Below, piece after piece: positions 3 through 43,005 of a stretch of DNA of 64,000 bases. Position 1 is the first letter of the stretch; each line of letters begins with the position of its first letter. A model generated the notes under the pieces. That model was not told the origin of the DNA, did not search any database, and saw only the letters and a list, made by a program, of their open reading frames with translations. The stretch spans positions 7,524-71,523 of the forward strand of contig DHKY01000014.1 of NCBI GenBank assembly GCA_002404995.1, read 5' to 3'. Source of the stretch: Bacillales bacterium UBA4682 (GTDB lineage Bacteria; Bacillota_I; Bacilli_A; RFN20; CAG-288). The position numbers and the translations under genes are program-made.

Positions 3-1223
3 GTCCAATACGGTACGATTCCGACATATGACAAACAGTATCCAACTAGAGCCAAGGATGATGCCTATAGCTATGAATTCAGCGGATGGAATCCGTCAGT
101 CACGGCCGTGATTGGAAACCAAACTTATGTTGCTACTTTCTTCAAGACCAATAACCGGTATTTGGTTAAATTTGTCGATGAAGATGGTTCCCTTCTTCAA
201 AGCTCTTATGTAGACTATGGATCAACTCCATCGTTTAATCAATATTACAGTCCTAAAAAAGAGAGCACGGCCCAATATGACTATGTTTTTAAGGGATGGG
301 ACAAGGAACTATCTCCTGTTACGGAAGATGTAACATTTACAGCCGTATATAGCAAAAAAATCCGGTCGTATACCATAAAGTGGGTTGCGAATGGTTATAC
401 CATCAAAAGCGAACAGGTCGATTATGGCCAAATCCCAAATCAGCCTTCTTTGGCTGAGGTCCCAGATAAGAGTCCGTCCAATGAATACACATATCAATTC
501 AAGGGATGGGATAGAGAAATCGAAGCTGTAACCGGAAATACGACTTATACTGCCGTTTATGAAAGAAAAACAAGACAATATCTGGTTTCCTGGATGGGCG
601 AAAATGGAAACCTTCTTAAAAAAGAACAATGCGATTACCTGTCTTCCGTTGGCTCTTACACGCCTGATTTGACAGATAATCAGATTTTCATGGGATGGAA
701 GACCAATCAATCGAGGAGCGATTATTTGGCTTTCCCCTACACAATCACACAGGATGTTTCCTTTTATGCGACCATCGTGAACAAATTCGAGTTCACCTAC
801 CTACCACTTACCGATTCCTATTCCCTTACGAAGTCAGCTGGTACAAAAGACATGACTACTTTTCCCGCAACTTACGATGATGGGGTTCATGGCTTAAAGA
901 ACGTTACAGAAATCGGAACAAGTGCTTTTGAAGGCACTTCAATTACTTCCATGATCATTCCGGACACAGTTACATACATCCATGGTGAGGCATTCAAGAA
1001 TTGCGACTCTTTAGCAACTCTCTTCATTCCTTCCTCAGTCACCAACATCCAAGAAGGCGCTATTTACGGAGATTTGAATCTTTCTGTTTATTGTGAAGCT
1101 GAAAGAAAGCCAGAAACATGGGATGATTACTGGAATGTTGTTCACTATGTTTCTGGAAAGACTAATCATTTCTCAAATGATACCTTTAATAAAAATATCG
1201 AATGGGGCTATTCAAAAGGATAA
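3..1223 (+). CDS. Cell-surface protein, 5'-partial (reading frame is open from the window start). Has repeated Listeria-Bacteroides/InlB B-repeat (Flg_new-like) modules, motif Y.FKGWD....TYTAVY, and a C-terminal BspA-type leucine-rich repeat.
   Basis: Frame 3 has no stop from nt 3 and already encodes the repeat motif (YSYEFSGWNPSVTAVIGNQTY) upstream of the first ATG at 108. There are at least four tandem ~70-aa repeats. The C-terminus has the TpLRR-like 'IPDTVTYIHGEAFKNCDSLATLFIPSSVTNI'. Confidence 0.7.
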   Translation, partial: VQYGTIPTYDKQYPTRAKDDAYSYEFSGWNPSVTAVIGNQTYVATFFKTNNRYLVKFVDEDGSLLQSSYVDYGSTPSFNQYYSPKKESTAQYDYVFKGWDKELSPVTEDVTFTAVYSKKIRSYTIKWVANGYTIKSEQVDYGQIPNQPSLAEVPDKSPSNEYTYQFKGWDREIEAVTGNTTYTAVYERKTRQYLVSWMGENGNLLKKEQCDYLSSVGSYTPDLTDNQIFMGWKTNQSRSDYLAFPYTITQDVSFYATIVNKFEFTYLPLTDSYSLTKSAGTKDMTTFPATYDDGVHGLKNVTEIGTSAFEGTSITSMIIPDTVTYIHGEAFKNCDSLATLFIPSSVTNIQEGAIYGDLNLSVYCEAERKPETWDDYWNVVHYVSGKTNHFSNDTFNKNIEWGYSKG

Positions 1224-1325
1224 AGACCAAATAGTTTTTTGCACGTTATTCTAATCTAGAAATCAATTGGATAGACTGCTATTGGCAGTAATAATCTTCT
1301 TTTGAGTTTTCTAAGGATCTATTGG

Positions 1326-1410
1326 TTAACCCCGTGCAGGTTCAATTTCTGTCGTCCGCACCAACTCAAATGTAATGGCCTCCGATTCCTAGAAAGGAAA
1401 TCTCGGAGGT
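1326..1410 (+). repeat. Partial 3'-end copy (~85 bp) of the ncRNA-like element annotated at 3597..3928. It includes the tRNA-like 'GGTTCAATTyCTGTCGTCCGCACCA' and a hairpin/T-run terminator.
   Basis: GGATCtATTGG...CCGTGCAGGTTCAATTtCTGTCGTCCGCACCA + GCCTCCG-loop-CGGAGG-TTT aligns with 3831..3928. Sequence upstream of 1326 is unrelated. Confidence 0.6.
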
Positions 1411-1692
1411 CTTTATTATTTCCGAGCAGGTGTGGGTATGGACCCAAAATTCAACGCATATAAGGCTGGAATGGATATCGTTTTAGAAAGGTACCCTTGT
1501 GGTAGGGGAAACGGTCAAAGACGAGGTGCCGTTTATTACTAATGCAAATGCGATTGTGGAAAAGAGTTCATCGTTTCTGGCGATGAATTATCGCGCCACC
1601 CTTATTCTTGCGATTGCACGCCTAAACCAATTGTTGAAGGCGACCGTTCCAATGAGTGGGCTCTTGGGTTTCAGGATGGAACGGCTCTATGC

Positions 1693-1901
1693 ATGATTAA
1701 GCCGACAAGGAGAGTATATTTTTCATCGAAATCAGGCGTTTCTGGCATTGTCTGGGATGAGCGAAGAAAGAAATACTATGTGTCCGTTACCTTGTGTGGG
1801 AAGACCTATTTTCTAGGCTTTTTGCGGATAAAGATGAGTCCATAAAGGCCAGGGTTGCCGGCGAACAAAAATACCTCGATCCTTTATTGTCGAATCAATA
1901 G
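1693..1901 (+). pseudogene. AP2-domain protein remnant (HNH homing-endonuclease- or integrase-associated type), disrupted by a frameshift in a T5/T6 run.
   Basis: Frame 1 gives MIKPTRRVYFSSKSGVSGIVWDERRKKYYVSVTLCGKTYFLGF, then a frame slip, then ADKDESIKARVAGEQKYLDPLL. Together these make a canonical AP2 fold signature (YRGV.W....KW.A.I...GK...LG.F...EEAA.AY). Confidence 0.4.
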
Positions 1902-2126
1902 TTTGAGAAATCTTCTTTATAAAAGGTTCATGTGGTAAACTAATTATGCAGCCAACGAATCTTCAAGCTTCCGGGTTTGTGGAAGCCGACGAGCCAATCT
2001 TCTGTAATGCTATTAAGAGGATTACCCATTAGAGGTTCATAGCGATAGGTCGCTCTATCAGCTTGTCAAATGCATTCTTAAGCTGCAGACAGGAGGAAGA
2101 GTCTTTTTGCGTTCCCAAAACGCATT

Positions 2127-3059
2127 ATGAAGACTTCAGAACAAACTATGGATCTCAACAGAGAGACCGCTATGCGACTTTGGAATAAGCGTTATGGCAA
2201 AGCGACCACCGTGAAGGATTTCACTGGTCGTGAAATGGCCAAGGGCGCTTATAACGACCGCAATAGCGCAAAAGGGTGGAACGTAGATCACATCCTACCG
2301 CAAAGCAAAGGCGGTGCTACGGCCGAGCACAACTTGGCCATCTGCAACATTCAAACTAATGACGAGAAGGCGGATAAGTTCCCGAGCTTTAAAGCAAACG
2401 GAATCGTCTTTGATATCGTCAAAGTCCAGAACCATTACGAATATCGCAAACGCGAAGATTCTCCGAAAGTGGAAGAGGACGACGGGGATGTCAACTTCAT
2501 GGATTCCGCTTCCGGAATTCGCTTCTTTAAAGATTTGAAAGGAATCCAGAACAAGCCACGTTTTGTAGGTTCTATTCTAATCAGACTCAAGAATGTCGAG
2601 TCTACAGCGTTAATCGACATGATTGAAAAGTACTTCGACAAAGAGAACATCTCTTACTCTATGAGCAAAGCTTATTGCTCCGACGTAACCAGAATCATCG
2701 CCAAAAACTACAATATGCCGTTGAAAGATGATATTTCTGAACTACTTGATAAATGTATCGTCCTCAACACCTATTTGGGGCATTACTTCTTACCGATGAA
2801 ATATATCAGTGGTTACGATATTATTTTTAGAACAGATTACTTCGAACAGAAAGAGGAAATGTACATCAAGTCCCAAGGAATTGATTTCAGAGAAATCGAA
2901 AACACTGGATTCGACAATAAGCTGTTCATCAACTATATGGTTTGGAACAACAGCGAAGCCAAGGGGAAGATGCAATTCGACTCTTCTGGTTACGAAGCAT
3001 ACGATTACGTCTATACGGAATTAGCAAAAAACTTAGATAAGGAGGTTAATAGGGAGTAA
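2127..3059 (+). CDS. HNH-nuclease-domain protein. The HNH motif is N-terminal and is followed by a ~220-aa C-terminal domain of unknown function.
   Basis: GWNVDHILPQSKGGATAEHNLAICNIQTNDEKAD is a His-Me finger/HNH signature. The ORF is intact at 310 aa. Confidence 0.7.
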   Translation: MKTSEQTMDLNRETAMRLWNKRYGKATTVKDFTGREMAKGAYNDRNSAKGWNVDHILPQSKGGATAEHNLAICNIQTNDEKADKFPSFKANGIVFDIVKVQNHYEYRKREDSPKVEEDDGDVNFMDSASGIRFFKDLKGIQNKPRFVGSILIRLKNVESTALIDMIEKYFDKENISYSMSKAYCSDVTRIIAKNYNMPLKDDISELLDKCIVLNTYLGHYFLPMKYISGYDIIFRTDYFEQKEEMYIKSQGIDFREIENTGFDNKLFINYMVWNNSEAKGKMQFDSSGYEAYDYVYTELAKNLDKEVNRE

Positions 3060-3196
3060 GCAAGATACTCTGCCTCCTGAAAGCCATATAGAAGCGGTCA
3101 GCGACGACCGCTTTTTTCTATGAAGCAATCGACTATACCGAAACCAAACAAATTGCGAATAGTCGAGTGGTTTACTAATAAAAAGAGGAAAAACAT

Positions 3197-3427
3197 ATGG
3201 CCATTATTGAAACTGAAGAAGAGGTTGTTGAAGAAATTCCAAAAGTAGTCGAAGCCGAACCATTGACCCAAAAAGAAATCGAGACAATTGCAGGAGAACT
3301 TATCGAAGCAAATCCGGAAAAGCAAAAATTGATGGTTGATAACATCTACGCAAAGTCCGCTACCGTTTTTTTAAATGTGGAGTCCCCGGTTGATTTCCTG
3401 TCGCCTTTCCTGCATCTGAGGCCGTAG
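3197..3427 (+). CDS. Small acidic hypothetical protein (76 aa).
   Basis: ORF with an AG-rich RBS (aaaagaggaaaaacatATG). No recognisable domain. Confidence 0.3.
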   Translation: MAIIETEEEVVEEIPKVVEAEPLTQKEIETIAGELIEANPEKQKLMVDNIYAKSATVFLNVESPVDFLSPFLHLRP

Positions 3428-3563
3428 CTTATGATCTCGTTGTCCCAGAGATCCATGTAAAGGGTGAGCCCGCAAAAAAATGCGTCCACATACCTTAAAC
3501 AGAACACAATAGAATCCTTTCCTACCATCGAAAAAAGTTCGATGAAATCTTTGTTTTTTCCTA

Positions 3564-3591
3564 TTGTATTCGCATTTTGTTTTGTTATAAT
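3564..3591 (+). promoter_or_regulatory. Sigma-A-type promoter of ncRNA-like element copy 1: -35-like TTGTAT and an extended -10 TGtTATAAT.
   Basis: TTGTAT-N16-TGTTATAAT. The -10 element and the downstream start region are conserved in the inverted copy at ~6991. Confidence 0.5.
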
Positions 3592-3596
3592 GCTCT

Positions 3597-3928
3597 CAGG
3601 AACGAAGGCGGTTCCAACCGATGAAACACCATCGACTGGGAGGCTCTAAAGCAGAGCTTGCCATGGTTGTCCGCTTTTGTCCGCAGCCCGTCCGCAAAAG
3701 CCAATGTACGCAAGGTGTTGGCATTCTTTTTCGTACTTTGGGCTGGAAACAAATACGCTATTTTCCGTCCTGTTCCTATCATGTACTCTTTTGTCTTCTA
3801 AATTAAGGAAAAGGATATGTAGGACTTAGAATCCATTGGAGCAATCCGTGCAGGTTCAATTCCTGTCGTCCGCACCAGTAAAAATAAAAGCCTCCGGTTC
3901 CTTCTTGGGATAACCGGAGGCTTTTTTT
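3597..3928 (+). ncRNA. Unclassified structured ncRNA-like element, copy 1 (~330 nt). It runs from the promoter to an intrinsic terminator. It has a 5' hairpin GGAACGAAGGCGGUUCC and a tRNA-like 3' end ...GGUUCAAUUCCUGUCGUCCGCACCA, then a GCCUCCGG...CCGGAGGC-U7 terminator.
   Basis: No ORF. About 75-80% identical to the inverted copy at 6603..6985, with perfectly conserved blocks interspersed with substitutions. It has its own promoter and terminator. Confidence 0.5.
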
Positions 3929-3973
3929 CTACTTGCCAATAAAATGAAATAAACCAACATTTCTATTTTTCAA

Positions 3974-4674
3974 GAGAAGGATAAACAATAGTGTTGCTAT
4001 CCTCAGCATGCGGTATAATCCTTCTGCTATATCAGAGGGGTTCCGAGGCCAGCAACAGGCTGATATAGCAACTTTCTCCTGTGGAAGCGGAAGATGCAGA
4101 GAATCCCGGAAAACGCCTCGGACACAGTGCTTTCCGAAAAAGTCTGGGTTGACCACACCTACATAAACGCGCCGATGTCGGTACGGAAAGGAAAGAAAAA
4201 GTGTGGACTGTCGAAACACCTCCTCCAGGTCGCGGCAGGCATCGGCTCTCACGGCCATGTGCTTCTCCGGCTCGGGAGCTGGGGAATGGCCGGAACGGGC
4301 GATTCGAAGGATGCGTTCCTCGGACATATAGCCCCTAGCTCCGTCGTCTGCCACGACAAGGGGCACTTAGGCGGATGCTTCCCGGGGTGCTGGGAGGTGG
4401 CAGTGAACTCAGAGGACGGAGAAGCACATGGGCTCCTCAATCCGGTCAACCGGCTGTAAGCCCAGGTCAAGCGCAAGTTTACCGTGCACCTGCGGATCCA
4501 CCGCAAGAACGTTCCCCTATGGCTTAACGAGAAGGCGTTCCAGAGGGAAAGGATGGGGAGCCTGGGTTTCGACGGATACCTGTCGTTCTTCTATAAAACC
4601 ATCTTCCTATCCAGGAAAACACTCAGAAGACGCGAGGTTTTCGGGAATTAGCAACACTATTGTTTATCCTTCTC
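3974..4674. mobile_element. MITE-like non-autonomous element A (701 bp), bounded by 24-bp terminal inverted repeats GAGAAGGATAAACAATAGTGTTGC. The interior is GC-rich and non-coding.
   Basis: The left end GAGAAGGATAAACAATAGTGTTGC equals the reverse complement of the right end GCAACACTATTGTTTATCCTTCTC. The same terminal inverted repeats are found at 5714..5861 and 13255..13713. Confidence 0.55.
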
Positions 4675-5044
4675 ATAAAAAAAGATTATATCGAATTTTC
4701 CGATGCCATAATATGAAACTAACGTGTTGAATTTAAGGGGTGCTGACACATTTTATTCAGTCTTAATTCGTTACTGTAAAATGGTTTGGGTTTCCCGGTT
4801 CCTTCATTCTTTTCTATATTGTTTCTAACGTGATTTCGTAAAAGTAAGAACAAATAAGTCCTTTTCAGATGCTCGATATTGTAGAAGCCATCAATCCGGT
4901 TTAGAAGAATTCTAGCGGTTCATTTTGCATTGTCCTAGCTCATATTGTTTTCTTCGATTCTTAGTGCTGACCGAAAAGGTTTGAATGTCTGGGTCTGGAT
5001 TCTTTGCTTTGTTTCTTGTTTGGAATAGGAATTTTAATTTATCG

Positions 5045-5519
5045 GCCATGTACCCTCCTGGAAATATAAATATGCAAACAAATCAAAATCATACGAATTC
5101 AAATCGATGGAATAATAGCAATCTTGATTAGAAAGAGATCCCCCGTTCACAGAGGTGAACGGAGTTAACCAATTATCATTATCATCAACATAAGAAATCG
5201 GAGTGCCTGTAGCACCATCATGTGCATCTTTTAAACCGATAAAATAGATAAATTTACATCATTGCTTCGAAGTCTAACAATACAGTTAAGCGAATAAAAT
5301 GTCCCATTAATTCCATCTTCGACTACATTAATACCATTTGCATTCAAATAATCATCTTCTGAAATTTTACTAATAAAAAGTTCACAGGAAATCCTTGAAT
5401 CTCATGAATCTAAGCCATAATAATAACCAGCTGCAATTACATTATTTCTTTTTGAAACACAAGAAGATAGCAGGCAGATAGCGATGGATGCGACAAAGAG
5501 GCTAATTAATTTTTTGGCA
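5045..5519 (-). pseudogene. Lipoprotein pseudogene. A signal peptide with lipobox (MPKK)LISLFVASIAICLLSSC is encoded, but the frame is broken at an A6 run right after the start, and later by stops.
   Basis: Reverse-strand translation gives the AKKLISLFVASIAICLLSSCVSKRNN... signal. 'atgccaaaaaattaa' terminates in frame, and one fewer A restores MPKKLISLF. There are further in-frame stops. Confidence 0.35.
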
Positions 5520-5713
5520 TTTCGCCACCTCAATGATAATATAGCACACAGGCAATAGTTTTTTTTGCGCATATTGGTGTGACTTTGTCAATACAAATGT
5601 AACCGCCTTTCTGAAAAAAACGAGAATTCAAAAAAATTGGCTCGTATTTTGTGTCAGTTCCAACTACGTTACTCAGAGCATTATTTTTATCGCTAAAGGG
5701 GATATTTTGTATT

Positions 5714-5861
5714 GAGAAGGTTAAACAATAGTGTTCCCAGTTCTCGGGCGCAGTATAATTCCTGTATTACGTTGCTGTAGTTCCGAGGCCGGCCTCAGGA
5801 TGATATAGAAGAAAGATTATACCGCATGCTGAGGATAGCAACGCTATTGTTTATCCTTCTC
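5714..5861. mobile_element. MITE-like element B (148 bp), the minimal member of the same terminal-inverted-repeat family. It contains the palindrome GAGGCCGGCCTC.
   Basis: Terminal inverted repeats TTGAGAAGGTTAAACAATAGTGTT / AACGCTATTGTTTATCCTTCTCAA. The first ~65 nt (as reverse complement) are ~90% identical to element A's left end. The core is shared with element C. Confidence 0.55.
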
Positions 5862-5873
5862 AATAACATTGTC

Positions 5874-6509
5874 TTAAAAAACATATTCACCCCCCTTTTC
5901 AAATAATAATAATATCTCGCCCAAGCTATCATGAACTGAGCTAATGGTCGAAGTGCTGATACCTATTTCTCCTTTTCCTATTACAAAATCACAGCACATT
6001 AGTTGTAAATTAGAAGCGTTTGTCGCTTGTAGTCTATCCCACTCTACGCTAAAAGATAAATTTAATGGATTAACCTTATCAGCGAATTCATTTATATTAT
6101 GTAAGTTCAAGTCAATTGAAAACTCATCGCTATGCATTTCAACAGTCATCCTTTGACGGGGAAACACCAAATCGTATCGTTTATTATTTGCATCCTCCAA
6201 ATTGATTCCCTCGGATTTAAAACAATAAGTAACATTAAACTTATCACTATCAGCTGGAGTCCAATATCGTTGATAATTATTTGTTTTAAACACACTATAA
6301 AAAATAGAATATTCATCGAATGATTCGAAAATATATGTGCCAACAACTTTGCTGTTTGGACCGCCTTCAATAATTTTAACATCTGAAACATCATCACTGC
6401 TCAATGCACCATCACTCATTCCGCTGGAAGTATATGTGGTATGTGAAGTACAACTTGATAAGGAAAAAATCACCAGTAGAGTTGCAATTAACACTCTATC
6501 CTTTTTCAT
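5874..6509 (-). CDS. Lipoprotein (211 aa).
   Basis: MKKDRVLIATLLVIFSLSSC lipoprotein signal peptide and lipobox. Confidence 0.6.
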   Translation of the reverse strand: MKKDRVLIATLLVIFSLSSCTSHTTYTSSGMSDGALSSDDVSDVKIIEGGPNSKVVGTYIFESFDEYSIFYSVFKTNNYQRYWTPADSDKFNVTYCFKSEGINLEDANNKRYDLVFPRQRMTVEMHSDEFSIDLNLHNINEFADKVNPLNLSFSVEWDRLQATNASNLQLMCCDFVIGKGEIGISTSTISSVHDSLGEILLLFEKGGEYVF

Positions 6510-6602
6510 TTACGACCTCCTCTTGCAGAAAAAATTATAAATTAAATTTTTCTACCTTTTTCTCTTGACAAATATAATATAACATACTAAGAAAACGTTT
6601 AC

Positions 6603-6985
6603 AAAAACAAAAATAGACCACCCAACCCTACTATTGCTAATAGGATTAAGCGGTCTTTTATTATGCTTTAGCCAATGCTTTCTTAAGTGTGTTTATACTC
6701 GCCTCGATCTGGGCATTGATCTAGGTGTCGACGTCAACAAAGTTCTTGTTGATGTAGTCCTAGAGAAGGGGTTCATCCCTAAGGTTCCTTAAGGAGCTTA
6801 GAAGAGATAAAAGACGAATTTGAGCGCATTTGTTGCCAGTCAAGACAACGAAAAAGAATGCCAACCACTCGCTTTGATTGGCGTTGCGGACAGGCTGCGA
6901 ACAATAGCGGACGGCTATGGCAGGACCTGATTTTGAGACCCTTGAGCCGATGGAGTTTCACCAGTCGGAACCGCCTTCGTTCCTA
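6603..6985 (-). ncRNA. Unclassified structured ncRNA-like element, copy 2, in inverted orientation. It has the conserved -10 GCTATAATGC, the 5' hairpin GGAACGAAGGCGGUUCC, and ends in an intrinsic terminator (~6603-6660) about 95 nt upstream of the lipoprotein gene 6509..5874.
   Basis: The reverse complement aligns with 3470..3870 over ~350 nt, with identical blocks such as CCTTAAACAGAACACAATAGAA, GGAACGAAGGCGGTTCC and TTGGCATTCTTTTTCGT. It lacks the CCA-type 3' end of copy 1. Confidence 0.45.
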
Positions 6986-7347
6986 GTTGCATTATAGCAA
7001 ACGGAAATGCGTTTTCAAATAGAAATTTCATCGAATTTATCGAAACTTTTTGGATGCTAGAATAGGGTTCTATTGTGTTCTGTTTAAGGGCTATGGACGC
7101 ATTGGTTTTGCTTAAATTCATTCAATATCGATAGGTTATTTACTCTTCTTGAAAATCACTTTAACCGCCGTGGTACAATAAATATAGAATCACGTTTTCT
7201 AATATCAAATAATTAAGTGCTATGGTTCCAAGTTACTATTTAAGTAACTAATCTGGTGAAATTGCCAGATGCATTGCCGTTTGGAACTGTTGAAAAAATG
7301 GGGAAATACTTTGGTAGTGTTGAGACTTCATAAAAGGAGACATTAAA

Positions 7348-9162
7348 ATGGATGTAAACGCAGAAAAAATGAATTTCGATGTCAATAGTGTAAGTGTTGG
7401 CACTCTTCTTGGGTATGTTGAGGACAATACAATTGCAATTCCTGAAATTCAAAGACCTTATGTGTGGGAGGCTAAGCAAGTTCGTGATTTGATTGACTCT
7501 CTTTATAAAGGATATCCAATCGGATACATTATCACTTGGAAGAATCCTAACGTGAAGCTTAAGGATGGCTCAACGTCTGAGGGGAAACAAATTCTTATTG
7601 ATGGCCAACAAAGAGTCACTGCCCTTTCAGCGGCTCTTCTTGGAAAAGAAGTCCTTGATGCAGAGTACAAAAAGAAACGAATCAAAATCTCTTTTAACAT
7701 TAAGACCGAAACATTTGATGTTTGCAATCCTGCCAAGGAAAAAAGTCCGGAATGGATTTCGGACATTTCCCGTTTCCTCAAGCCTGGATTAGTGAATATG
7801 TATGAATTTTGTGGAGAATACGCGAAAATTTCTGGACTTGATGCCAATACAGTGAACAACAGAATATCCCGCCTTCTGAGTATTAAGGAATCGAGAGTAG
7901 GAAGAATTGAGTTATCTTCGGAAGCTGACATTGATACTGTAACTGAGATATTTGTGAGAATAAATTCACGTGGAAAGTCACTTTCTCAAGCGGATTTTGT
8001 CATGTCCAAAATCAGCGTTAATGAGAAATTCTCTGGAAATGACATAAGAAAGGCTATCGATTATTTTTCTCACTTTTTGCAAACGCCAACAGATTTTCCA
8101 CATATAAAAGATTGTGACACCGATTTTGCTTCTAAGGACATTTTCAGAAAGATGTCTTGGGCGGCTTCTTATTCAGATAATCTTTATAAGCCAGACTATT
8201 CTGACATGCTTAGAGTTGCTTTCACTTACAAATTCAAAAAAGGGAGACTTCAAGACTTGGTGAGTCTCCTTTCTGGTCGTGACTTTGAAACTAAAGAATA
8301 TAAAGAAGAGATTGCTCAGTCTAGTTTTGAAAGTCTTTATGATGGCGTCAAGGATTTTGTTAACGAAACCAATTACAATCGATACATCATGATTGTTAAA
8401 GGAACTGGAATTATAAACGAGTCCATTAAGCGGTCTCAGGGTGTTATTAATTTTGGATATATCCTTTATTTGCTCATGAAAGAGAAAAAATACCAGCCCT
8501 TTGATATTGAGAAATACGTAATGAAGTGGATTGTTTACTCTATTCTCACACAGCGATATTCTGGCTCTACTGAGACGGGTTTCGAGTACGATGTTAAGCG
8601 TTTAGATGCTTGTGGAAACATTCCCGAATATATTGATTCTCAAGCAGAAGCAGAACTTTCTGACGCTTTTTGGGAAAAGGTTCTTCCAGATCGTTTCAAT
8701 ACTTCAGTAGCTGGTAGTAGCTATTGGTATATTTTTCTTGCTGCACAAATAAAAGAAAATGATCATGCCTTTTTATCAAAAAGTAGTACTGTCAAAGACT
8801 TACTTGAGCAGAGAGGAGATGTTCATCATATTTTCCCGAAAAAATATTTGATTAAAAATGGTATAGATATTAAGCAGCGATATAATCAAATAGCAAATTA
8901 CGTTTATCTACAACAAGAAACAAATATTGCTATTAGCGACAGAGCACCCAACCAGTACTTTAAAGAATTAGAGGAACAGATAAATGGTGGCAAACAACGC
9001 TATGGATGCATACTTTCTCAAGACGAGCTGGAGGCCAATCTTGCCGAAAATGCTATCCCCTCAGGAATTCAGTCAATGGAATACGACTCATATGATAAAT
9101 TCCTTGAGGAACGCCGGAAACTTATGGCTGAAAAGATTAAGAAATATTTTCAAAGCTTTTAG
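7348..9162 (+). CDS. GmrSD-like type IV (modification-dependent) restriction endonuclease: N-terminal DUF262 (ParB-like NTPase/nuclease) and C-terminal DUF1524 (HNH/His-Me finger).
   Basis: N-terminal IAIPEIQRPYVWE...LIDGQQRVTAL (DUF262 motifs). C-terminal DVHHIFPKKYL...NYVYLQQETNIAIS (DUF1524). Confidence 0.8.
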   Translation: MDVNAEKMNFDVNSVSVGTLLGYVEDNTIAIPEIQRPYVWEAKQVRDLIDSLYKGYPIGYIITWKNPNVKLKDGSTSEGKQILIDGQQRVTALSAALLGKEVLDAEYKKKRIKISFNIKTETFDVCNPAKEKSPEWISDISRFLKPGLVNMYEFCGEYAKISGLDANTVNNRISRLLSIKESRVGRIELSSEADIDTVTEIFVRINSRGKSLSQADFVMSKISVNEKFSGNDIRKAIDYFSHFLQTPTDFPHIKDCDTDFASKDIFRKMSWAASYSDNLYKPDYSDMLRVAFTYKFKKGRLQDLVSLLSGRDFETKEYKEEIAQSSFESLYDGVKDFVNETNYNRYIMIVKGTGIINESIKRSQGVINFGYILYLLMKEKKYQPFDIEKYVMKWIVYSILTQRYSGSTETGFEYDVKRLDACGNIPEYIDSQAEAELSDAFWEKVLPDRFNTSVAGSSYWYIFLAAQIKENDHAFLSKSSTVKDLLEQRGDVHHIFPKKYLIKNGIDIKQRYNQIANYVYLQQETNIAISDRAPNQYFKELEEQINGGKQRYGCILSQDELEANLAENAIPSGIQSMEYDSYDKFLEERRKLMAEKIKKYFQSF

Positions 9163-11091: not shown

Positions 11092-11970
11092 ATGGATGGA
11101 TTGAAATGGAGATTCCCTGCCGCTAACCACGGCGAAAAAAAGGGAATCAGTTCAGGGGACGCGGAAGCCTTCCGCAAATTCCCTTACCAGGCCTTTGCGC
11201 GAGAGATTCTTCAGAACTCTATCGACGCGAGAGCTTCCGACGAAGAACCGACACGGGTCGAATTCGCTTCTTTCGAAATAAAGAAGGAAGATCTCCCAGG
11301 ATATGCTGATTTGGAAGCCCAAGTGCGTCGCTGCAAAGAGTTCTATCAATATAAGGAAGAATATAAAGAGGCTTACGACAAGATCCTTTCGGTTTTCGAT
11401 AAGGAAACTATCCAGTGTCTCCGCGTCAGCGACTACAACACCAGTGGTTTAGTCGGCGTCGATTCCAACAGCTTGAAGGGAAACAAATTCAATGCCCTTG
11501 CCAAGGGAACAGGCCTTTCTGAGAAGAATGGCTCCCTGTCCGGCGGTTCAAAAGGCGTTGGAAAGAATGCAGCTTTCCTCATGTCTAAGATCAAAACGGT
11601 GTTCTATTCGACCAATGCTAATCAGGACACGGATGGGAATGCCTCTACTCATTTAGGATACATGGGCGTTTCGAACCTTGTTTCCGGTTGGATTGATGAA
11701 CAGCATAAGAACCCTGGAGATGATTACACTCAGGGAACTGGATACTTTTCCTCAGATGATTCAAATGATGCAATTCCCAGTGTATTGGATTTGGACCCAT
11801 CTTGCCACAGAAGAGAAAACCAAAGCGGAACGGATATTTATATTTTAGGGTTCGAGCCAGAATCGGAATGGAGAAACGAAATCATCTGCAGCATCCTGGA
11901 TTCGTTTATGGCTGCTATTACACGCAATCATCTATTGGTCTCCGTTGATGGCCGAGGGAATACTTCGTCG
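11092..11970 (+). pseudogene. GHKL-superfamily (HATPase_c, Hsp90/MORC/sacsin-like) ATPase, N-terminal part only. The ORF runs out of frame into a Fic C-terminal fragment.
   Basis: N-box EILQNSIDA, G1 box DYNTSGL, G2 box GSKGVGKNAAF. Homologous sequence ends around 11970, where frame +2 begins to encode unrelated Fic sequence. Confidence 0.55.
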
Positions 11971-11974
11971 CCCC

Positions 11975-12391
11975 GTTTTGTATCTGTCGTTGTACCTGAA
12001 AGCAAATCGTGTCGAGTATTACGACAGATTGAGTGAGGTCCGTGCCAAGGGCAACTACGAACAGTGGATCAAATTCTTTTTGCGCGGGATTATCGAAACT
12101 TGCGATGACGGCATCAAAACAATTGGAAAGATAAATTCGCTTGTCCGGTCGGACGAAGAAAAGCTTGCCAAAAAAGCCAAAACGGTTTCAATGGTTTTCG
12201 ATTATATCAAGCAGCATCCGATTATTTCTATCGGTGGAGCCGCAATCGCACTTGGGCTGTCCTACAATGGCGTATCCGGTGCAGTCAAAAAGATGGTTGA
12301 AGCTGGCATACTAAACGAAATCACGGCAAAGACCCGAGACCGGGTTTTCGAGTATTCGGGATATATCGATATCTTAAAATCGGGAACTTAA
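11975..12391 (+). pseudogene. C-terminal fragment of a Fic/DOC-family protein (winged-helix tail). The Fic catalytic core is absent.
   Basis: PVLYLSLYLKANRVEYYDRLSEVRAKGNYEQWIKFFLRGIIE... matches the conserved Fic C-terminal module (PILYLSRYI..NR.EYY..L......W..FFL). No upstream HPFx(D/E)GNGR region is present. Confidence 0.5.
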
Positions 12392-12479
12392 TACGCAGGG
12401 GCAACCATCGTTAACCGTTGACATCTCTCTTCCCTAACCAAGGGAAGAAAAAGTTGCTTCGATTACTCCGGCAATCGGA

Positions 12480-13130
12480 TTCTAGTTATGCTCCATCCTA
12501 TGCCGGAAAAGGACCTGTCCAGCCATCCCTTCTGGATCCCTCGGGACTTCTTCAGAAACCACTTGAAGTCGGAGAACAGATGACGAAGAGCTCAAAGCCT
12601 TCTCTTTCAAGGTCGTTGCTCCTTCGGAGTTCCCTTCCTGCTGTGATTGAAAATCCCTTCGCGTCAGCGCGTTCATGGATGACGGAAGTCCCCCTGACGA
12701 ATCCGGTCCTTCCACGCCTTTCTCAGCGGCTCAGCAGTCGGATGGCCGGTCTTGGCGATGTCCTCCTTCTGCGAGGATATACCAAATTTCTTTCCCTTCT
12801 CCTTCGTCTTTCTGCTCAGTCCTACATATAGGTCCCATCCACCTCTGCCTTTCCCAAGGAGACCGAAAACGTATGTCCACACTTCTTGCAGAGTTGTTTT
12901 CCCTGTCTTTGCCCGTAGCAGACGACCCTGCGCGAATGGCAGTAGGGACACAAATTCGGCTTCCTGCCGTTGACAACAGAAAGGAATCCGTCTCTGGCCT
13001 TCCGCGACTGGTATCTTCCGAGTGCGGAAAAAACGGCGACTATCATATGCGATGCTCCCGAGGGTTCCGGAATTCGAGGAAGCGGGAGTATCGCTAAATA
13101 TCTGCCTCTTCGGATTTCGGAACACTTATA
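12480..13130 (-). mobile_element. Degraded IS1595-family transposase remnant (N-terminal zinc ribbon is intact, the rest is frameshifted). The segment is GC-rich relative to its surroundings.
   Basis: Minus-strand ORF 13046..12822 encodes CPYCHSRRVVCYGQRQGKQLCKKCGHTFSVSLGK, i.e. Zn_Tnp_IS1595 (CPHCGS...C..CG..FSVTSGT). Multiple overlapping short ORFs and a local GC jump. Confidence 0.45.
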
Positions 13131-13254
13131 TTTAGCGAATCCTTTATAGCACAGGAAAGAGATACCAACACTTAACCAGGAATATATTAAAGCATACTAA
13201 AAACCCTCCTTTTTCATGAATTTGAGCAAAAGAAAAGAGCCCATGATTTAAAGC

Positions 13255-13713
13255 GAAGGATAAACCATAGTGTCCCAGTCCTCGGACGCAGTATAATTCC
13301 TGTATTACGTTGCTGTAGTTCCGAGGCCGGCCATGGGCATCGCCCGAAGCAGCACGGAAGAGAACACGGGAAATAAATATGGGTGTGCCATGGCTGCAAG
13401 AGGATATTCTCGGACAAAAGCTGCACGAGCCTGTCCTATACCAAGCTGAAAACCTCGCAGATCAGGATGCCCCCTGTTCATGATCTCGGAAGGGCCGACC
13501 CTAAGATAGGTGCTCACCAAGCGCATGTGTCATCTTCTGCGGAAGGAGTAAAGGCAGAAAATCCGGAAAACCGCCGGGAACAAGGTGATACTCCAACGGA
13601 GAAGTTGGGGACTTGTCGGGACATGCGCTTGATCTACCGATTGATCTTCTTTCCGGTAAAACATTCAGAAAATGGGGAGTATTTGGCCATTAGCAGCACT
13701 ATTGTTTGTCTTC
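13255..13713. mobile_element. MITE-like element C (459 bp) with the same terminal-inverted-repeat family (GAAGGATAAACCATAGTGTCCC ... GCAGCACTATTGTTTGTCTTC).
   Basis: The left ~75 nt are near-identical to element B (CGCAGTATAATTCCTGTATTACGTTGCTGTAGTTCCGAGGCCGGCC). The right ~60 nt are similar to element A's right end. Confidence 0.5.
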
Positions 13714-13852
13714 TAATTGATATTATATGTAAGCATCATTTTATCAGTTGAATAGCTCAACAATCATTCCTTTACAAAAGATAACAGCTAAACTAACATC
13801 AATAATTATGAAGAGAACAAGACAATAGTACCGACACGAAAAAGAAGAAATT

Positions 13853-14121: not shown

Positions 14122-14239
14122 AACAGGAAGGTTGTATAGATATCTCGTTTCAAAAAGGACTATAAGCGGGGCCATCTCAATATAAACCTTTACATAACGC
14201 CATAAGTCCAAAATAGAATTAATATTGCAAGAAATAAGA

Positions 14240-14377
14240 TAGATGACAAAGGAACACTCTTTCTAGGCTTAAAGGAATTCCTTATCAATCCAGATTCCAT
14301 AAAATCCTAAAAGATCTTTTAAAACCACATTTGTTTTCTAAAACATAAAATTGCAAGAACTTGCAAAAATTTTAGTT
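14240..14377 (+). repeat. 138-bp direct repeat, identical to 15637..15774. It consists of the last ~38 codons of a COG1373 ATPase gene plus ~65 bp of 3' flank, including the palindrome TTGCAAGAACTTGCAA.
   Basis: Exact duplication. A third copy of 'TGCAAGAACTTGCAAAAATTTTAGTTA' at 14413..14441 sits between a TATATAAT box and the RBS of the ATPase gene. Confidence 0.8.
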
Positions 14378-14453
14378 ATAAATCTTTTTTGGCTTCTTCA
14401 AGTTATATAATAAATGTGCAAGAACTTGCAAAAATTTTAGTTAGGAGGCAGAT

Positions 14454-15704
14454 ATGATTGAAAGAAACGAATATCTGAGAAAGCTCATTGACCGAATGGG
14501 AAATGGAAGGATCAAGGTAATCACTGGCATCAGAAGATGCGGTAAATCCTATTTGTTATTTGAAATATTTTATAACTATCTGCTTGAAAACGGGGTTGAT
14601 AAGTCACATATCATCGCTTTACAACTAGATGACAGGCTGAATATCAAATTCCAAAATCCAGAATATTTGTGTCAATATGTTCATAATCAGATTACTGACG
14701 ACGGGAAGTACTATATACTTTTAGATGAAGTGCAATTCGTGGATCATTTTGAAAGGGTTTTGAATTCTTTCCTGCACATCAAAAACGCAGATGTTTATGT
14801 GACTGGAAGCAATGCGAAATTTCTTTCTTCGGACATTATTACTGAATTCAGAGGAAGAGGAGACCAAATTTATTTATCGCCGCTGTCTTTCAAAGAATAT
14901 TATGATTATTGCAAAATAGATTTTGATGATGCGTGGAATGAATATTCCATGTATGGAGGCATGCCTTTTCTTTTGACTTGCAAAACAGACGAACAAAAAG
15001 TTCATTATTTAGAAAACCTTTTCACTGAGACCTACATAAAAGATATTGTCAATCGTCACAATATCCGAGACACCGACGTTTTAGAAGATGTCCTGAATAT
15101 TGTTTCTTCAAGTGTCGGTTCATTGACAAACCCTAATAAGTTATCGAATTCATTCAAATCTATCAAGAGCATCGATGTGGCACCTAACACAATCAAGCAA
15201 TATCTTGATTATTGCATTGACTCCTTTTTGTTGCAAAAAGCATACCGGTACGATGTCAAAGGAAAGAAATACATTGACACGCCTTTAAAATACTATTTCA
15301 CCGATATAGGCTTAAGAAACGCAAGACTAGGATTCAGACAGCAGGAAGAAAACCACATCATGGAAAACATCCTATTTAACGAATTGGTAATCCGTGGATA
15401 TAAAGTAGACGTTGGTGTTGTAACCACCAGTGAAAAGAACCCAAATGGTAACTATGTAAGAAAAAACCGAGAAGTTGATTTTGTCTGTAATCTCGGATAT
15501 GAGAGATACTACATACAATCCGCGTTTGCTCTCGATGATGCAGAAAAGAAAGAGCAAGAAGAAAAATCCTTGCTGAATATCCATGACGGTTTTAAAAAAA
15601 TCATCATTGTAAGAAATAACATCAAGAAATGGATAGATGACAAAGGAACACTCTTTCTAGGCTTAAAGGAATTCCTTATCAATCCAGATTCCATAAAATC
15701 CTAA
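14454..15704 (+). CDS. AAA+ ATPase of the COG1373 / AAA_14-DUF4143 family (P-loop ATPase fused to a C-terminal PD-(D/E)xK-like domain).
   Basis: VITGIRRCGKSYLL Walker A at the N-terminus. C-terminal NREVDFVCNLGYERYYIQSAFAL (E.D..-type nuclease-fold motif). Paralog of 34833..36068. Confidence 0.8.
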   Translation: MIERNEYLRKLIDRMGNGRIKVITGIRRCGKSYLLFEIFYNYLLENGVDKSHIIALQLDDRLNIKFQNPEYLCQYVHNQITDDGKYYILLDEVQFVDHFERVLNSFLHIKNADVYVTGSNAKFLSSDIITEFRGRGDQIYLSPLSFKEYYDYCKIDFDDAWNEYSMYGGMPFLLTCKTDEQKVHYLENLFTETYIKDIVNRHNIRDTDVLEDVLNIVSSSVGSLTNPNKLSNSFKSIKSIDVAPNTIKQYLDYCIDSFLLQKAYRYDVKGKKYIDTPLKYYFTDIGLRNARLGFRQQEENHIMENILFNELVIRGYKVDVGVVTTSEKNPNGNYVRKNREVDFVCNLGYERYYIQSAFALDDAEKKEQEEKSLLNIHDGFKKIIIVRNNIKKWIDDKGTLFLGLKEFLINPDSIKS

Positions 15705-15774
15705 AAGATCTTTTAAAACCACATTTGTTTTCTAAAACATAAAATTGCAAGAACTTGCAAAAATTTTAGTTAGA
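15637..15774 (+). repeat. Downstream copy of the 138-bp direct repeat (3' end of the ATPase gene + flank with the TTGCAAGAACTTGCAA palindrome).
   Basis: Identical to 14240..14377. Confidence 0.8.
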
Positions 15775-15963
15775 ATGCTTGTCCTCAAAGAAAACTGCCG
15801 ATGTTGTCAGAGAGGGAACTGACGCAAATTTCACCAGTCCCTTATCCTGTTATGCGAGGAATGCACTTTAGTCTATTATTTGCACATATAAAGCACACGT
15901 TTAGCTACCTTCATTTCCCTCGAATCGTATAATGAAGTCAGATACAAGTAAGGAGGCATATAT

Positions 15964-42550: not shown

Positions 42551-43005
42551 ATTGATTATCTCCTTTATAAATGAATATCAAAAAGTTCATCCGGCTTTTC
42601 ATAGTAGATTCGATTTTAATAGCCAAGAACTTAAAGCTATTCAGTTTACTAAAAATAATATATTAAATCAAGGAAAGGACCAGCCGATTCTTTTGCCAAA
42701 GGGCTTTAAAAACAGGAAAAGTATCTTTACCTGTTTAATACGCCCTATGAAATATCAATCTTATCTAATTACTTGAATTTGTTCTTCTTTTGCTGACTTT
42801 AATAATCAACTATTATATTTAAGAGAAGGACAAACTATCCTATCGCTTTTATTTTTTTCTTTCAGAAGGAATCTTTTTCGAACATAATTCCTATCGCCAG
42901 AAAACAATTGTATTTTTAGCACAATTTTTCACTTAAAATGAAATTATTCTTTACTCTCTTTTTTCTATACCTATAATAATTAAAAAAAGGGGGGGTAATA
43001 TTCTC

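What the first reader, a model, noticed from the sequence alone, without database searches (positions are those of the whole stretch)
3974..5861. Family of MITE-like elements with 24-bp terminal inverted repeats, three size variants (148, 459, 701 bp)
Terminal inverted repeats GAGAAGGATAAACAATAGTGTTGC / GCAACACTATTGTTTATCCTTCTC bound elements at 3974..4674, 5714..5861 and 13255..13713. The members share ~65-75-nt subterminal blocks but differ in interior length. The long ones have GC-rich interiors with no intact ORF, consistent with internally deleted derivatives of an autonomous IS. The shared core contains strong palindromes (GAGGCCGGCCTC in B, and GCTATATCAG...CTGATATAGC in A) and TATAAT-like boxes (GCGGTATAATCC, GCAGTATAATTCC). 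These could make the elements mobile promoters or small RNAs. No clear target-site duplication is visible.
Basis: seen in the sequence. Interest (0 to 1): 0.55.

Follow-up and report, generated by a model that had tools for sequence, protein, structure and literature searches.

The report
Decayed IS1595-type insertion sequences plus MITE
The repeats are real, but they are ordinary genomic debris: broken copies and one miniature derivative of a 1-kb jumping gene of the IS1595 family that is common in uncultured gut Bacilli. The only mildly new point is a conserved RNA-like structure in front of its transposase gene.

Summary
The 24-nt inverted repeats bound three elements: A at 3974-4674, B at 5714-5861 and C, corrected to 13253-13715. 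Shuffled sequence gives no such match.

The GC-rich interiors are not RNA genes. They are remnants of a transposase gene. The intact parent was recovered from gut and fermenter metagenomes. It is 1028 bp with the same ends and one 286-aa ORF. That ORF has an N-terminal CxxC...CxxC zinc ribbon and a D-D-N(K) catalytic domain, distantly related to annotated IS1595-family transposases.

- **A** is the parent minus 318 bp (start codon, zinc ribbon, helix-turn-helix) plus one in-frame stop.
- **C** is an older relic with several deletions.
- **B** is a true MITE, made of a left end joined to an inverted, diverged left end. Two other genomes carry MITEs of the same design.

The helices are absent from Rfam.

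Target-site duplications are unclear. There is one exact 8-bp case in 16 two-ended elements, yet a 9-nt A/T-only zone abuts all 60 distinct termini.

Verdict: a new member of a known kind, of low interest.

The parts
3974..4674 (+). Element A: a non-autonomous, internally deleted copy (701 bp) of the 1028-bp IS. It lacks parent positions 111-428.
   Evidence: blastn to the full-length element of L006: 1-110 at 93.6% and 429-1027 at 84.3%. The two 24-nt TIRs are identical.
3974..3997 (+). Left terminal inverted repeat of A.
   Evidence: Exact match. The same sequence ends elements in L006, L022, L023 and others.
4651..4674 (-). Right terminal inverted repeat of A. The transposase stop codon TAG lies at 4649-4651 and overlaps its inner edge.
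4014..4019 (+). TATAAT box, the putative -10 of the transposase promoter, pointing into the element. No consensus -35 was found.
   Evidence: A TATAAT-like hexamer (TATAAT in most, e.g. TTTAAT in L003, TATACC in L004) sits 6-7 nt before helix P1 in the IS variants examined. The sigma-70 scan did not call it.
4026..4084 (+). Leader structure remnant in A: P1 5' arm at 4026-4035, P2 5' arm at 4040-4059, P1 3' arm at 4060-4069. Only the first 7 nt of the P2 3' arm survive (4078-4084), before the deletion junction.
   Evidence: Covariation test on alignment A3. Covariance-model hit at 4026-4115, E 1.5e-4.
4079..4084 (+). Deletion junction. The CTGTGG microhomology is present at both parent breakpoints, and 318 bp are lost between them.
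   Evidence: The two blastn segments overlap at 4076-4084. Parent sequence read.
4076..4651 (+). Transposase pseudogene corresponding to residues 96-286. One reading frame, with an in-frame TAA at 4457-4459 replacing the nearly invariant Cys223.
   Evidence: blastx 81.6% to P0001 residues 96-285. Translation. ORF list.
5714..5861 (.). Element B: a 148-bp MITE. A type-2 left end (5714-about 5794) is joined head-to-head to an inverted type-1 left end (5801-5861).
   Evidence: MITEs of the same design are at L003 948-1137 and L031 8446-8634. The fold z-score is -5.9.
5785..5796 (.). Palindrome GAGGCCGGCCTC, formed by the 5' strand of leader helix P2 fused directly to its 3' strand. It is the symmetry centre of the MITE.
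   Evidence: Sequence compared with the leaders.
13253..13715 (+). Element C: an old relic of a diverged sister IS (about 463 bp) with degenerate TIRs, a type-2 left end and at least two internal deletions.
   Evidence: The TIR cores have 3 mismatches each. blastx gives 42-48% to residues 25-91 only. It is 65.6% identical to parent positions 214-481 at the nucleotide level. Its right end is 76% identical to A's right end.
12440..13188 (-). Element D, not in the finding: a heavily decayed fourth relic, head-to-head with C. Its outer left TIR is lost and its limits are approximate.
   Evidence: tblastn zinc-ribbon remnant at 12852-12950, E about 1e-5. Leader covariance-model hit at 13044-13136 (-), E 3.3e-5. 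Sequence read.

Best explanation
The elements are fossils of a small DDE insertion sequence. It belongs to a divergent, uncatalogued subgroup of the IS1595 family.

**The intact element.** It is 1028 bp, with ends RAGAAGGATAAACAATAGTGTTGC...CCTTCTC. It carries one gene for a 286-aa transposase with three parts: a four-cysteine zinc ribbon, a helix-turn-helix-like region, and an RNase-H-type D-D-N(K) catalytic core.

**How it should move (inferred from the family).** The transposase binds the two terminal inverted repeats through its N-terminal domains. It then moves the element into short A/T-only targets, normally duplicating 8 bp.

**The copies in this window.**
- A lost 318 bp by a microhomology deletion. 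That removed the ribosome-binding site, start codon, zinc ribbon and helix-turn-helix. A also acquired a stop codon, so it cannot move itself. Its ends are perfect, so a full copy elsewhere could still move it.
- B is a 148-bp MITE made only of two left ends facing each other.
- C and D are older relics with damaged ends and are probably immobile.

The TATAAT box and the palindromes belong to the transposase promoter and leader. The mRNA would start about at helix P1. The leader can form either P1 (10 bp) or a 20-bp helix P2, which ends 4-5 nt before the Shine-Dalgarno GGAAAGG. Both helices are kept by compensatory changes across IS variants.

**Inferred, not shown.** The leader most likely limits transposase translation or mRNA stability. 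The P2 inverted repeat may also be the point at which palindromic MITEs such as B arise.
For: **Parent element.** L006 19-1046 (-) is 1028 bp with an intact 286-aa ORF and the same TIRs. Near-identical copies are in L023, L024, L025, L038 and L045. A copy 87% identical at the nucleotide level, whose transposase P0003 is 85% identical, is in L022.

**Multi-copy behaviour.**
- Contigs L024 and L025 are 1029 and 1027 bp, that is, just the element.
- 13 of 27 metagenome hits end 50-54 nt inside the element.
- The termini abut 60 distinct flanks.

**Family assignment.**
- NCBIfam IS1/IS1595 zinc domain: 46 bits, cutoff 28.
- NCBIfam transpos_IS1595: E 1.3e-13 over model positions 1-214 of 215.
- Precomputed PF12762 hits on P0020, P0021, P0026, P0034 and P0039.
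- tblastn against plasmids: 13 of the 15 top records are annotated IS1595 family (or IS1595-like ISCaje5) transposase and two carry no annotation; 26-31% identity, E down to 1e-15.
- Alignment with three of these keeps C21, C24, C43 and D121 invariant; C46, D189 and N220 are kept in at least 90% of sequences, and N220 is followed 7 residues later by K/Q227.

**A as a pseudogene.** blastx gives 81.6% in one frame to residues 96-285, with a single in-frame stop.

**Other deletion derivatives.** Different internal deletions occur in L020, L047, L058 and L059.

**MITE design.** The same design recurs in L003 and L031.

**Leader.**
- 88.6% of cells are paired, against 36-41% when partners are slid by 1-3 columns.
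- 20 of 30 pairs show changes on both sides, a count reached by 0 of 500 shuffles.
- P2 is the minimum-energy fold, with z -5.3 to -5.8 in L004 and L064.
- The covariance model finds it in the family IS copies that retain a left end, plus relic D, and not in the canonical IS1595 loci L065-L067.

**Targets.** A 9-nt A/T-only zone abuts all termini. One exact 8-bp duplication, AATATTTA, flanks L048 3889-4909.
Against: **Domain scores.** The catalytic-domain scores are below curated thresholds. NCBIfam transpos_IS1595 scores 51 bits against a cutoff of 75. Pfam PF12762 and PF12760 reach only E about 0.03 for the L006 protein.

**Target-site duplications.** The family's usual 8-bp duplication is absent at A, B and C, and at 12 of the 13 two-ended relatives examined. 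In A/T-only flanks a single 8/8 match has a chance probability of roughly 0.4% per element (my estimate, assuming about 50% identity per A/T-only position), so one case in 16 is weak evidence.

**Autonomous copy.** No intact copy lies in this 64-kb window, so trans-mobilisation here is conjecture.

**Leader.**
- The promoter has no recognisable -35.
- Nothing shows that the leader acts as RNA.
- The G-U over A-C excess on the sense strand is only 26 to 15.
- P1 and the full P2 cannot form together.
Confidence: 0.9

Rival explanations
1. The GC-rich interiors are a structured non-coding RNA cargo, for example an intron-like or guide-type RNA, carried by a TIR-bounded mobile element. On this view they are not dead protein-coding sequence.
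For: The interior is 56-62% GC in a much lower-GC neighbourhood. There is no long intact ORF. The left end does contain covarying helices.
Against: - A's interior translates in one frame to 190 residues that are 81.6% identical to an intact transposase.
- No Rfam family matches the interiors, even at E up to 10.
- The covarying helices occupy only about 75 nt of the leader.
- IS variants range from 30 to 58% GC, so high GC is not intrinsic to the element.
Confidence: 0.02
2. The three copies stem from one ancient segmental duplication in this genome, not from transposition.
For: A, B and C have no target-site duplications. All lie within 10 kb of each other.
Against: - The flanks of A, B and C are unrelated.
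- The three have different internal structures and belong to two diverged left-end types.
- The same ends occur at 60 different flanks in other genomes and metagenomes.
- Assemblies break at the element, as they do at multi-copy repeats.
Confidence: 0.02
3. The element belongs to the IS1 family, or to a separate new family of the IS1/IS1595 superfamily, and not to IS1595 proper. It may also transpose without an 8-bp duplication.
For: - The NCBIfam IS1 transposase model hits with E 1e-11.
- The IS1595 catalytic model stays below its cutoff, and the Pfam IS1595 domains are marginal.
- A faint PF03811 (InsA zinc ribbon) hit is recorded on P0039.
- Duplications are missing in 15 of 16 elements.
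Against: - The IS1 hit covers only the N-terminal 82 of 199 model positions, the shared zinc/HTH region. The IS1595 model is covered end to end.
- There is a single ORF with no InsA/InsB frameshift arrangement.
- The annotated hits among the top plasmid records are all IS1595-family.
- The D-D-N(K) spacing aligns with the IS1595 proteins.
- The uninterrupted site in L036 has an A/T-only tract on one side of the junction only. That fits duplication better than blunt insertion.
Confidence: 0.12
4. The relics have been co-opted. A and B act as mobile promoters or produce small hairpin RNAs from their TATAAT boxes, which would affect neighbouring genes.
For: The TATAAT boxes are intact in A, in both arms of B, and in C. 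B would give convergent transcripts forming a stable hairpin of -55.8 kcal/mol, z -5.9.
Against: - All boxes point into the elements, not outwards.
- No consensus -35 was found.
- The sequence features are fully accounted for as transposase promoter and leader, conserved in intact copies.
- The region between A and B has no convincing gene.
Confidence: 0.1

Closest known systems
IS1595 family of insertion sequences (Siguier, Gagnevin and Chandler 2009, as summarised in PMC8101967), specifically the zinc-finger-bearing groups with a D-D-N(K) motif
   Same: - About 1 kb long, with a single transposase gene.
- N-terminal four-cysteine zinc ribbon.
- C-terminal DDE-type domain that aligns end to end with the NCBIfam IS1595 model.
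- Short terminal inverted repeats.
- One example with an 8-bp target duplication.
- Preference for A/T-rich targets.
   Different: - Only 26-31% identical to annotated members.
- Below the Pfam and NCBIfam curated cutoffs for the catalytic domain.
- The ends (GAGAAGG...) differ from the subgroup end motifs I recall from ISfinder (memory, not tested).
- Duplications are missing at most copies.
- It carries a covarying two-helix leader that the three canonical members examined lack.
IS1 family
   Same: Shares the N-terminal zinc-ribbon and helix-turn-helix region (NCBIfam NF050000 and NF033558 hits). Similar small size.
   Different: IS1 makes its transposase by a programmed frameshift between insA and insB (my knowledge). 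Here there is one continuous ORF, and the catalytic part matches IS1595 and not IS1.
Prokaryotic MITEs (review PMC10969869)
   Same: - B is under 500 bp and has TIRs within the usual 4-30 nt range.
- It has no coding capacity.
- It sits in an A/T-rich intergenic region.
- It folds into a stable hairpin.
- It shares its ends with an autonomous IS.
   Different: - No flanking direct repeats.
- B is not a simple internal deletion of the IS. It is two diverged left ends in inverted orientation, joined at the leader palindrome.
- A (701 bp) and C (about 463 bp) are pseudogene copies, not MITEs in the strict sense.
Cis-acting leader structures that restrain transposase expression in other IS, such as the IS10/IS50 fold-back inhibition of read-through transcripts and the IS200 5'-UTR stem-loop (my knowledge, not tested here)
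   Same: A conserved secondary structure lies between the weak internal promoter and the ribosome-binding site of the transposase gene.
   Different: There are two mutually exclusive or pseudoknotted helices. Neither directly covers the Shine-Dalgarno sequence. No sequence or Rfam relationship was found. The function is untested.

Membership tests
IS1595 family | Single transposase gene in an element of roughly 0.7-1.1 kb bounded by terminal inverted repeats. | tested here: met
   L006 19-1046 is 1028 bp with one 286-aa ORF and 24-26-nt TIRs. The same holds in L022, L023, L045, L048, L060 and L061.
IS1595 family | N-terminal zinc-finger domain (absent only in the IS1016 group) (PMC8101967). 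| tested here: met
   NCBIfam NF050000 IS1/IS1595 zinc-binding domain scores 46 bits against a cutoff of 28. C21, C24 and C43 are invariant and C46 nearly invariant in the alignment with annotated IS1595 transposases. Pfam PF12760 reaches only E 0.029.
IS1595 family | C-terminal DDE_Tnp_IS1595 catalytic domain. | tested here: inconclusive
   - NCBIfam NF033547: E 1.3e-13 and full model coverage, but 51 bits against a cutoff of 75.
- Pfam PF12762: E 0.031 for the L006 protein, though recorded for five family members.
- tblastn hits to annotated IS1595 transposases: E down to 1e-15 at 26-31% identity.
- D121, D189 and N220 (+K/Q227) align with them.
Homology is clear, but curated thresholds are not reached.
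IS1595 family | 8-bp target-site duplication (PMC8101967). | tested here: inconclusive
   - An exact 8-bp duplication occurs only at L048 3889-4909. None occurs at A, B, C or 12 other two-ended elements.
- Matched flanks are 4.67/9 identical, against 3.9/9 for mismatched pairs.
- A 9-nt A/T-only zone abuts every terminus.
- One uninterrupted site (L036) is compatible with duplication.
IS1 family | Transposase produced from two overlapping frames (insA/insB) and an IS1-type catalytic domain. | tested here: not met
   There is one continuous ORF. The NCBIfam IS1 model matches only its first 82 of 199 positions.
Prokaryotic MITE | Under 500 bp, non-coding, with TIRs matching an autonomous element (PMC10969869). 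| tested here: met
   - B is 148 bp with TIRs 22/24 and 23/24 identical to the IS ends. It has no ORF.
- C is under 500 bp but carries transposase remnants.
- A is 701 bp and is a pseudogene copy.
Prokaryotic MITE | Flanking direct repeats (present in young copies, fading with age; PMC10969869). | tested here: not met
   No direct repeat flanks B, or the related MITEs in L003 and L031.
Prokaryotic MITE | Multiple copies at different sites, or mobilisation in trans. | tested here: inconclusive
   MITEs of the same two-arm design occur at one site each in three genomes: the window, L003 (same site as L049, L051 and L052) and L031. Copy number within a genome and insertion polymorphism could not be measured.
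Any described RNA family (Rfam 15) | Covariance-model match to the elements or their leader. | tested here: not met
   There is no match in A, B or C at the gathering threshold or at E up to 10. There is none in L006, L020, L003 or L004 apart from an unrelated tmRNA.

The most novel reading that the evidence does not exclude
The transposase leader of this IS1595-like subgroup may be an undescribed cis-regulatory RNA. It would consist of two covarying, mutually exclusive (or partly pseudoknotted) helices, P1 and P2. These sit between the weak promoter and the Shine-Dalgarno sequence and would switch transposase translation or mRNA stability. The 20-bp P2 inverted repeat may also be the breakpoint at which palindromic left-end/left-end MITEs such as B are generated. 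In addition, this subgroup may insert into 9-nt A/T-only targets, often leaving no recognisable duplication.
Probability: 0.4. Interest if true: 0.4.

Novelty: new member of a known kind. Interest (0 to 1): 0.25.

Why it matters
- **Annotation.** The GC-rich non-coding stretches and palindromes in this window are explained as transposon debris and need not be pursued as RNA genes or regulatory elements.
- **Cataloguing.** A divergent IS1595-type subgroup falls below the Pfam and NCBIfam cutoffs. It seems widespread in uncultured pig-gut and fermenter Bacilli, where it breaks metagenome assemblies. A curated entry and model would improve annotation of those MAGs.
- **Biology.** The covarying leader is a compact, testable case of transposase self-restraint. 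The left-end/left-end MITEs hint at how a hairpin in an IS can seed a MITE. Neither point would surprise a specialist.

Tried and rejected
**Searches that found nothing.**
- Rfam at the gathering threshold over the whole window, and at E up to 10 over 3700-6000, found nothing in the elements. Rfam on four related loci likewise found nothing relevant.
- ARAGORN found no tRNA or tmRNA. Rfam at E up to 0.1 over 1100-7400 found no tmRNA, so the tRNA-like repeats near A are fragments only.
- Pfam on the longest ORFs inside A and C gave nothing. Their nature emerged only after the intact parent was found.
- An exact-protein look-up of a window gene, tried to identify the genome, found no record. The window's genome also seems absent from the GTDB representative set, because no scanned locus held two TIR matches.
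- No viral contig carries the TIR.

**Target-site duplications.**
- I tried fixed offsets of 0-3 nt and lengths of 4-10.
- I compared the longest common substring in 25-nt flanks against a mismatched-pair background.
- I scored direct and inverted symmetry. Only L048 was convincing, and the apparent inverted symmetry of flanks is no greater than background.

**Empty sites.**
- The empty-site search among all fetched loci gave one partial case, L036/L033 against L023. The left flank of L023 does not match it.
- The last contig look-up (P0032, 24 contigs) returned a single fixed site, so it added only one more element without a duplication.

**Readings considered and dropped.** A TA-target IS630/mariner-type element (no consistent TA), a group II intron, an omega/bridge-RNA-type cargo, and a composite transposon bounded by A-left and B-right (no duplication; the intervening DNA is A/T-rich non-coding).

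**Not attempted.** Structure prediction of the transposase, because the sequence evidence sufficed.
Full report
**1. The observation**

The 24-nt sequence GAGAAGGATAAACAATAGTGTTGC occurs at 3974 (+) and 4674 (-) without mismatch. It occurs at 5714 (+) and 5861 (-) with 2 and 1 mismatches. No shuffle of the window gives a single match. A 20-nt core with up to three mismatches also recovers both ends of the third element: six matches against 0.02 expected.

Element A is 701 bp (3974-4674) and B is 148 bp (5714-5861). C runs from 13253 to 13715, two bases further out at each end than reported.

The shared blocks are real but arranged in a particular way.
- The first 61 nt of A recur inverted as the right part of B (95%).
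- The left part of B equals the left end of C (94-97%).
- The right ends of A and C are 76% alike.
- The left ends of A and B are diverged versions of one sequence (72% over 95 nt).

The interiors of A and C are GC-rich, up to 0.62, in surroundings of 0.33-0.45.

**2. What the interiors are**

No RNA family matches the elements, at Rfam gathering scores or at E up to 10. The ORFs inside them have no Pfam domain.

A scan of one genome per GTDB species with a degenerate TIR pattern gave 21 loci. The true relatives came from uncultured Bacilli, "Mollicutes", Erysipelotrichaceae and Solobacterium MAGs.

In one of them, L006 positions 19-1046 on the minus strand form a 1028-bp element with the same ends and one intact 286-aa ORF. 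A aligns to it as positions 1-110 (93.6%) and 429-1027 (84.3%). The two segments overlap at CTGTGG, which is present at both parent breakpoints. A is therefore the parent minus 318 bp, lost by a microhomology deletion.

The deletion removed several features:
- part of the leader;
- the Shine-Dalgarno sequence and the start codon;
- the first 95 codons.

The rest of A reads in one frame and is 81.6% identical to residues 96-285. A single TAA at 4457-4459 replaces a nearly invariant cysteine.

C matches only residues 25-91, at 42-48%, plus a stretch of the right end. It lacks the middle of the gene and most of the leader, so it is an older relic of a diverged sister element.

tblastn also revealed a fourth relic, D, on the minus strand next to C. 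It keeps a zinc-ribbon remnant at 12852-12950. My leader model hits 13044-13136 with E 3.3e-5. Its outer TIR is gone.

**3. The parent element**

*Protein family.* The protein family has 67 clusters at 90% identity. Almost all come only from metagenome assemblies or raw-read assemblies, with four also in NCBI records, and many are truncated.
- NCBIfam places the N-terminus in the IS1/IS1595 zinc-binding domain: 46 bits, cutoff 28.
- NCBIfam aligns the rest end to end with its IS1595 transposase model at E 1.3e-13, but at 51 bits this is below the cutoff of 75.
- The Pfam IS1595 domains are marginal for this protein, yet are on record for five relatives.
- Against 72,556 plasmids, 13 of the 15 top records are annotated IS1595 family (or IS1595-like ISCaje5) transposase and two carry no annotation, at 26-31% identity and E down to 1e-15.
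- In an alignment with three of these, C21, C24, C43 and D121 (in DxTY) are invariant. C46, D189 and N220 are kept in at least 90% of sequences, and N220 is followed seven residues later by K or Q. This is a D-D-N(K) arrangement.

As summarised in PMC8101967, the family is defined by a single transposase gene, an N-terminal zinc finger, the DDE_Tnp_IS1595 domain and usually 8-bp target duplications.

*Evidence of mobility.* The element behaves as a multi-copy mobile sequence.
- Two contigs are 1027 and 1029 bp long and consist of the element alone.
- 13 of 27 metagenome hits end 50-54 nt inside it, as assemblers do at repeats.
- The termini abut 60 different flanks.
- Other loci carry other internal deletions.
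- No viral contig carries it.

**4. The MITE**

B has no coding remnant. Read from its right end, it follows the parent's left end through the TIR, the TATAAT box and the first arm of the leader hairpin, up to GAGGCC. It then turns directly into GGCCTC and continues as an inverted, diverged left end of the type also seen in C.

Elements of the same design occur in two other places:
- "Bacillales bacterium UBA784" (L003 948-1137, the same site in three other assemblies);
- L031 8446-8634.

They pair a type-1 arm with a type-2 arm carrying the GTGTTCCC signature, and are 189-190 bp long.

B's arms are nevertheless closest to the local copies A and C. Whether such MITEs spread as units or form repeatedly at the palindrome is therefore open.

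**5. The TATAAT boxes and palindromes**

Across six or more IS variants, including ones whose transposases are only 43-50% identical, the left end has the same layout:
- the TIR;
- a TATAAT-like box;
- 6-7 nt of spacer;
- a 10-nt arm (P1 5');
- 4 nt;
- a 20-nt arm (P2 5');
- the P1 3' arm;
- about 8 nt (AAYTTYCC);
- the P2 3' arm;
- 4-5 nt;
- GGAAAGG;
- 8-12 nt;
- ATG.

On a 12-sequence alignment, 88.6% of cells pair, against 36-41% when partners are slid by 1-3 columns. Changes on both sides occur in 5 of 10 P1 pairs and 15 of 20 P2 pairs. No shuffle out of 500 reaches the observed counts. The structure was derived from these same sequences, which inflates the contrast, but the number of compensatory changes is large.

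P2 is the minimum-energy fold, with z of -5.3 to -5.8 in two variants. The 3' arm of P1 lies in the P2 loop, and the connecting loops are 4 and 0 nt. The two helices therefore cannot both form fully.

G-U pairs outnumber A-C mismatches 26 to 15 in P2, a weak hint that the sense strand folds.

A covariance model of the leader finds it in the family copies that retain a left end and in relic D. It does not find it upstream of three canonical IS1595 transposases.

The consensus scan did not call the TATAAT boxes as promoters because no -35 is present. Their fixed position in the variants examined is the argument for a weak -10.

That this leader restrains transposase synthesis is my inference, by analogy with other IS. 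It is not shown.

**6. Target sites**

Neither A, B nor C, nor 12 of the 13 two-ended relatives, has a direct repeat at the ends. Only L048 3889-4909 has an exact 8-bp duplication, AATATTTA. Matched flanks are barely more alike than mismatched ones: 4.67 against 3.9 of 9.

Yet in 60 distinct termini the nine positions outside the outermost base are almost purely A/T. C+G is at most about 10% at seven of the nine positions and 21-27% at the other two. The next six positions have ordinary composition.

One locus (L036, also L033) carries the uninterrupted sequence across an insertion junction seen in L023, CCTTACCT|TATTAAAATTAAAG. Its A/T-only tract lies on one side only, which fits duplication of an 8-9-nt A/T target better than blunt insertion.

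Two things could scramble the flanks of 1-kb copies. One is chimeric short-read assembly across a repeat. The other is recombination between copies; for example, the L022 right-end flank is joined to a left end in L032. Neither readily explains the MITEs, so this point stays unexplained.

**7. Comparison and verdict**

The elements work like, and by homology belong with, the zinc-finger-bearing IS1595 family. Membership is supported by architecture, the zinc domain and end-to-end homology of the catalytic domain. It falls short of curated score thresholds, and the 8-bp duplication test is inconclusive.

IS1 membership fails: there is one ORF, and only the N-terminal part matches.

B meets the size, TIR and non-coding criteria of prokaryotic MITEs (PMC10969869) but lacks direct repeats.

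This is a new, divergent member of a known kind, and the window holds only its fossils. The most novel reading left open is that the leader is an undescribed regulatory RNA and a MITE-forming hotspot. That would be of moderate interest at best.

Noticed in passing
window 12440-13188 (-): A fourth, heavily decayed relic of the same IS family (D) lies head-to-head with C. It keeps a zinc-ribbon remnant at 12852-12950 and leader helices at 13044-13136. Its outer TIR is lost. Window 11951-12643 is also 87% identical to L031 3118-3809, so part of this region is shared with another genome.
   Followed up: partly
window 1311-1363 and 3825-3877; L022 768-817: These are direct repeats (83%) of what looks like the 3' part of a tRNA-Leu(UAG), ending ...GGTTCAATTCCTGTCGTCCGCACCA. 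ARAGORN and Rfam call no tRNA or tmRNA there. They bracket a 2.5-kb segment holding an HNH-domain ORF (2127-3059) and the Staphylococcus-1 RNA, like att remnants of an integrated element. The same 50 nt (96%) lie 2 kb from the IS in L022.
   Followed up: partly
window 1952-2082 (+): Full-length match to Rfam Staphylococcus-1 RNA (RF03112): 109.9 bits against a gathering score of 87.7.
   Followed up: no
window 3474-3637 / 6945-7108 and 3697-3759 / 6823-6885: Long imperfect inverted repeats (164 nt at 77%, 63 nt at 78%) enclose the whole A-B region and the ORF at 5874-6509. Their nature is unknown.
   Followed up: no
window 14238-14386 / 15632-15780, and 14345-14449: 149-nt direct repeats (98%) flank an AAA_14/DUF4143 ATPase ORF (14454-15704). 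A 40-nt motif (ATAAAATTGCAAGAACTTGCAAAAATTTTAGTTA...) occurs three times. An AAA_14/DUF4143 gene also sits beside the IS in L022.
   Followed up: no
window 7348-9162 (+): A 604-aa ORF carries GmrSD N-terminal (E 1e-35) and weak C-terminal domains. It is a type IV restriction-like defence gene in the same island-like region.
   Followed up: no
window 49009-49096 (+): Fluoride riboswitch (RF01734), 43.1 bits against a gathering score of 34.
   Followed up: no
window 42823-42846 (+): GAGAAGGACAAACTATCCTATCGC resembles the outer 13-14 nt of the TIR but has no partner and no adjacent IS sequence. It is either a solo end remnant or chance.
   Followed up: partly
60 termini in loci L003-L064 and the window: A sharply bounded 9-nt A/T-only zone abuts every IS terminus, yet exact target duplications are almost never seen, even for the 148-190-bp MITEs.
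   Followed up: partly
L022 3885-4003, L032 56-174, L058 886-1004: The same flank is joined at the same junction to a right end in two samples and to a left end in a third. This suggests inversion between IS copies, or a left-left element at that site.
   Followed up: no
L062 (30% GC), L061 (49%), L006 (56%), L064 (58%): Variants of this IS family span 30-58% GC while keeping the same ends and leader layout. The copy in this window is much more GC-rich than its host DNA.
   Followed up: no
window 27898-27987: A run of seven overlapping copies with a 9-nt period (TCGCCTTTGTCGCCCTTA...), presumably a three-residue-repeat coding segment on the opposite strand.
   Followed up: no
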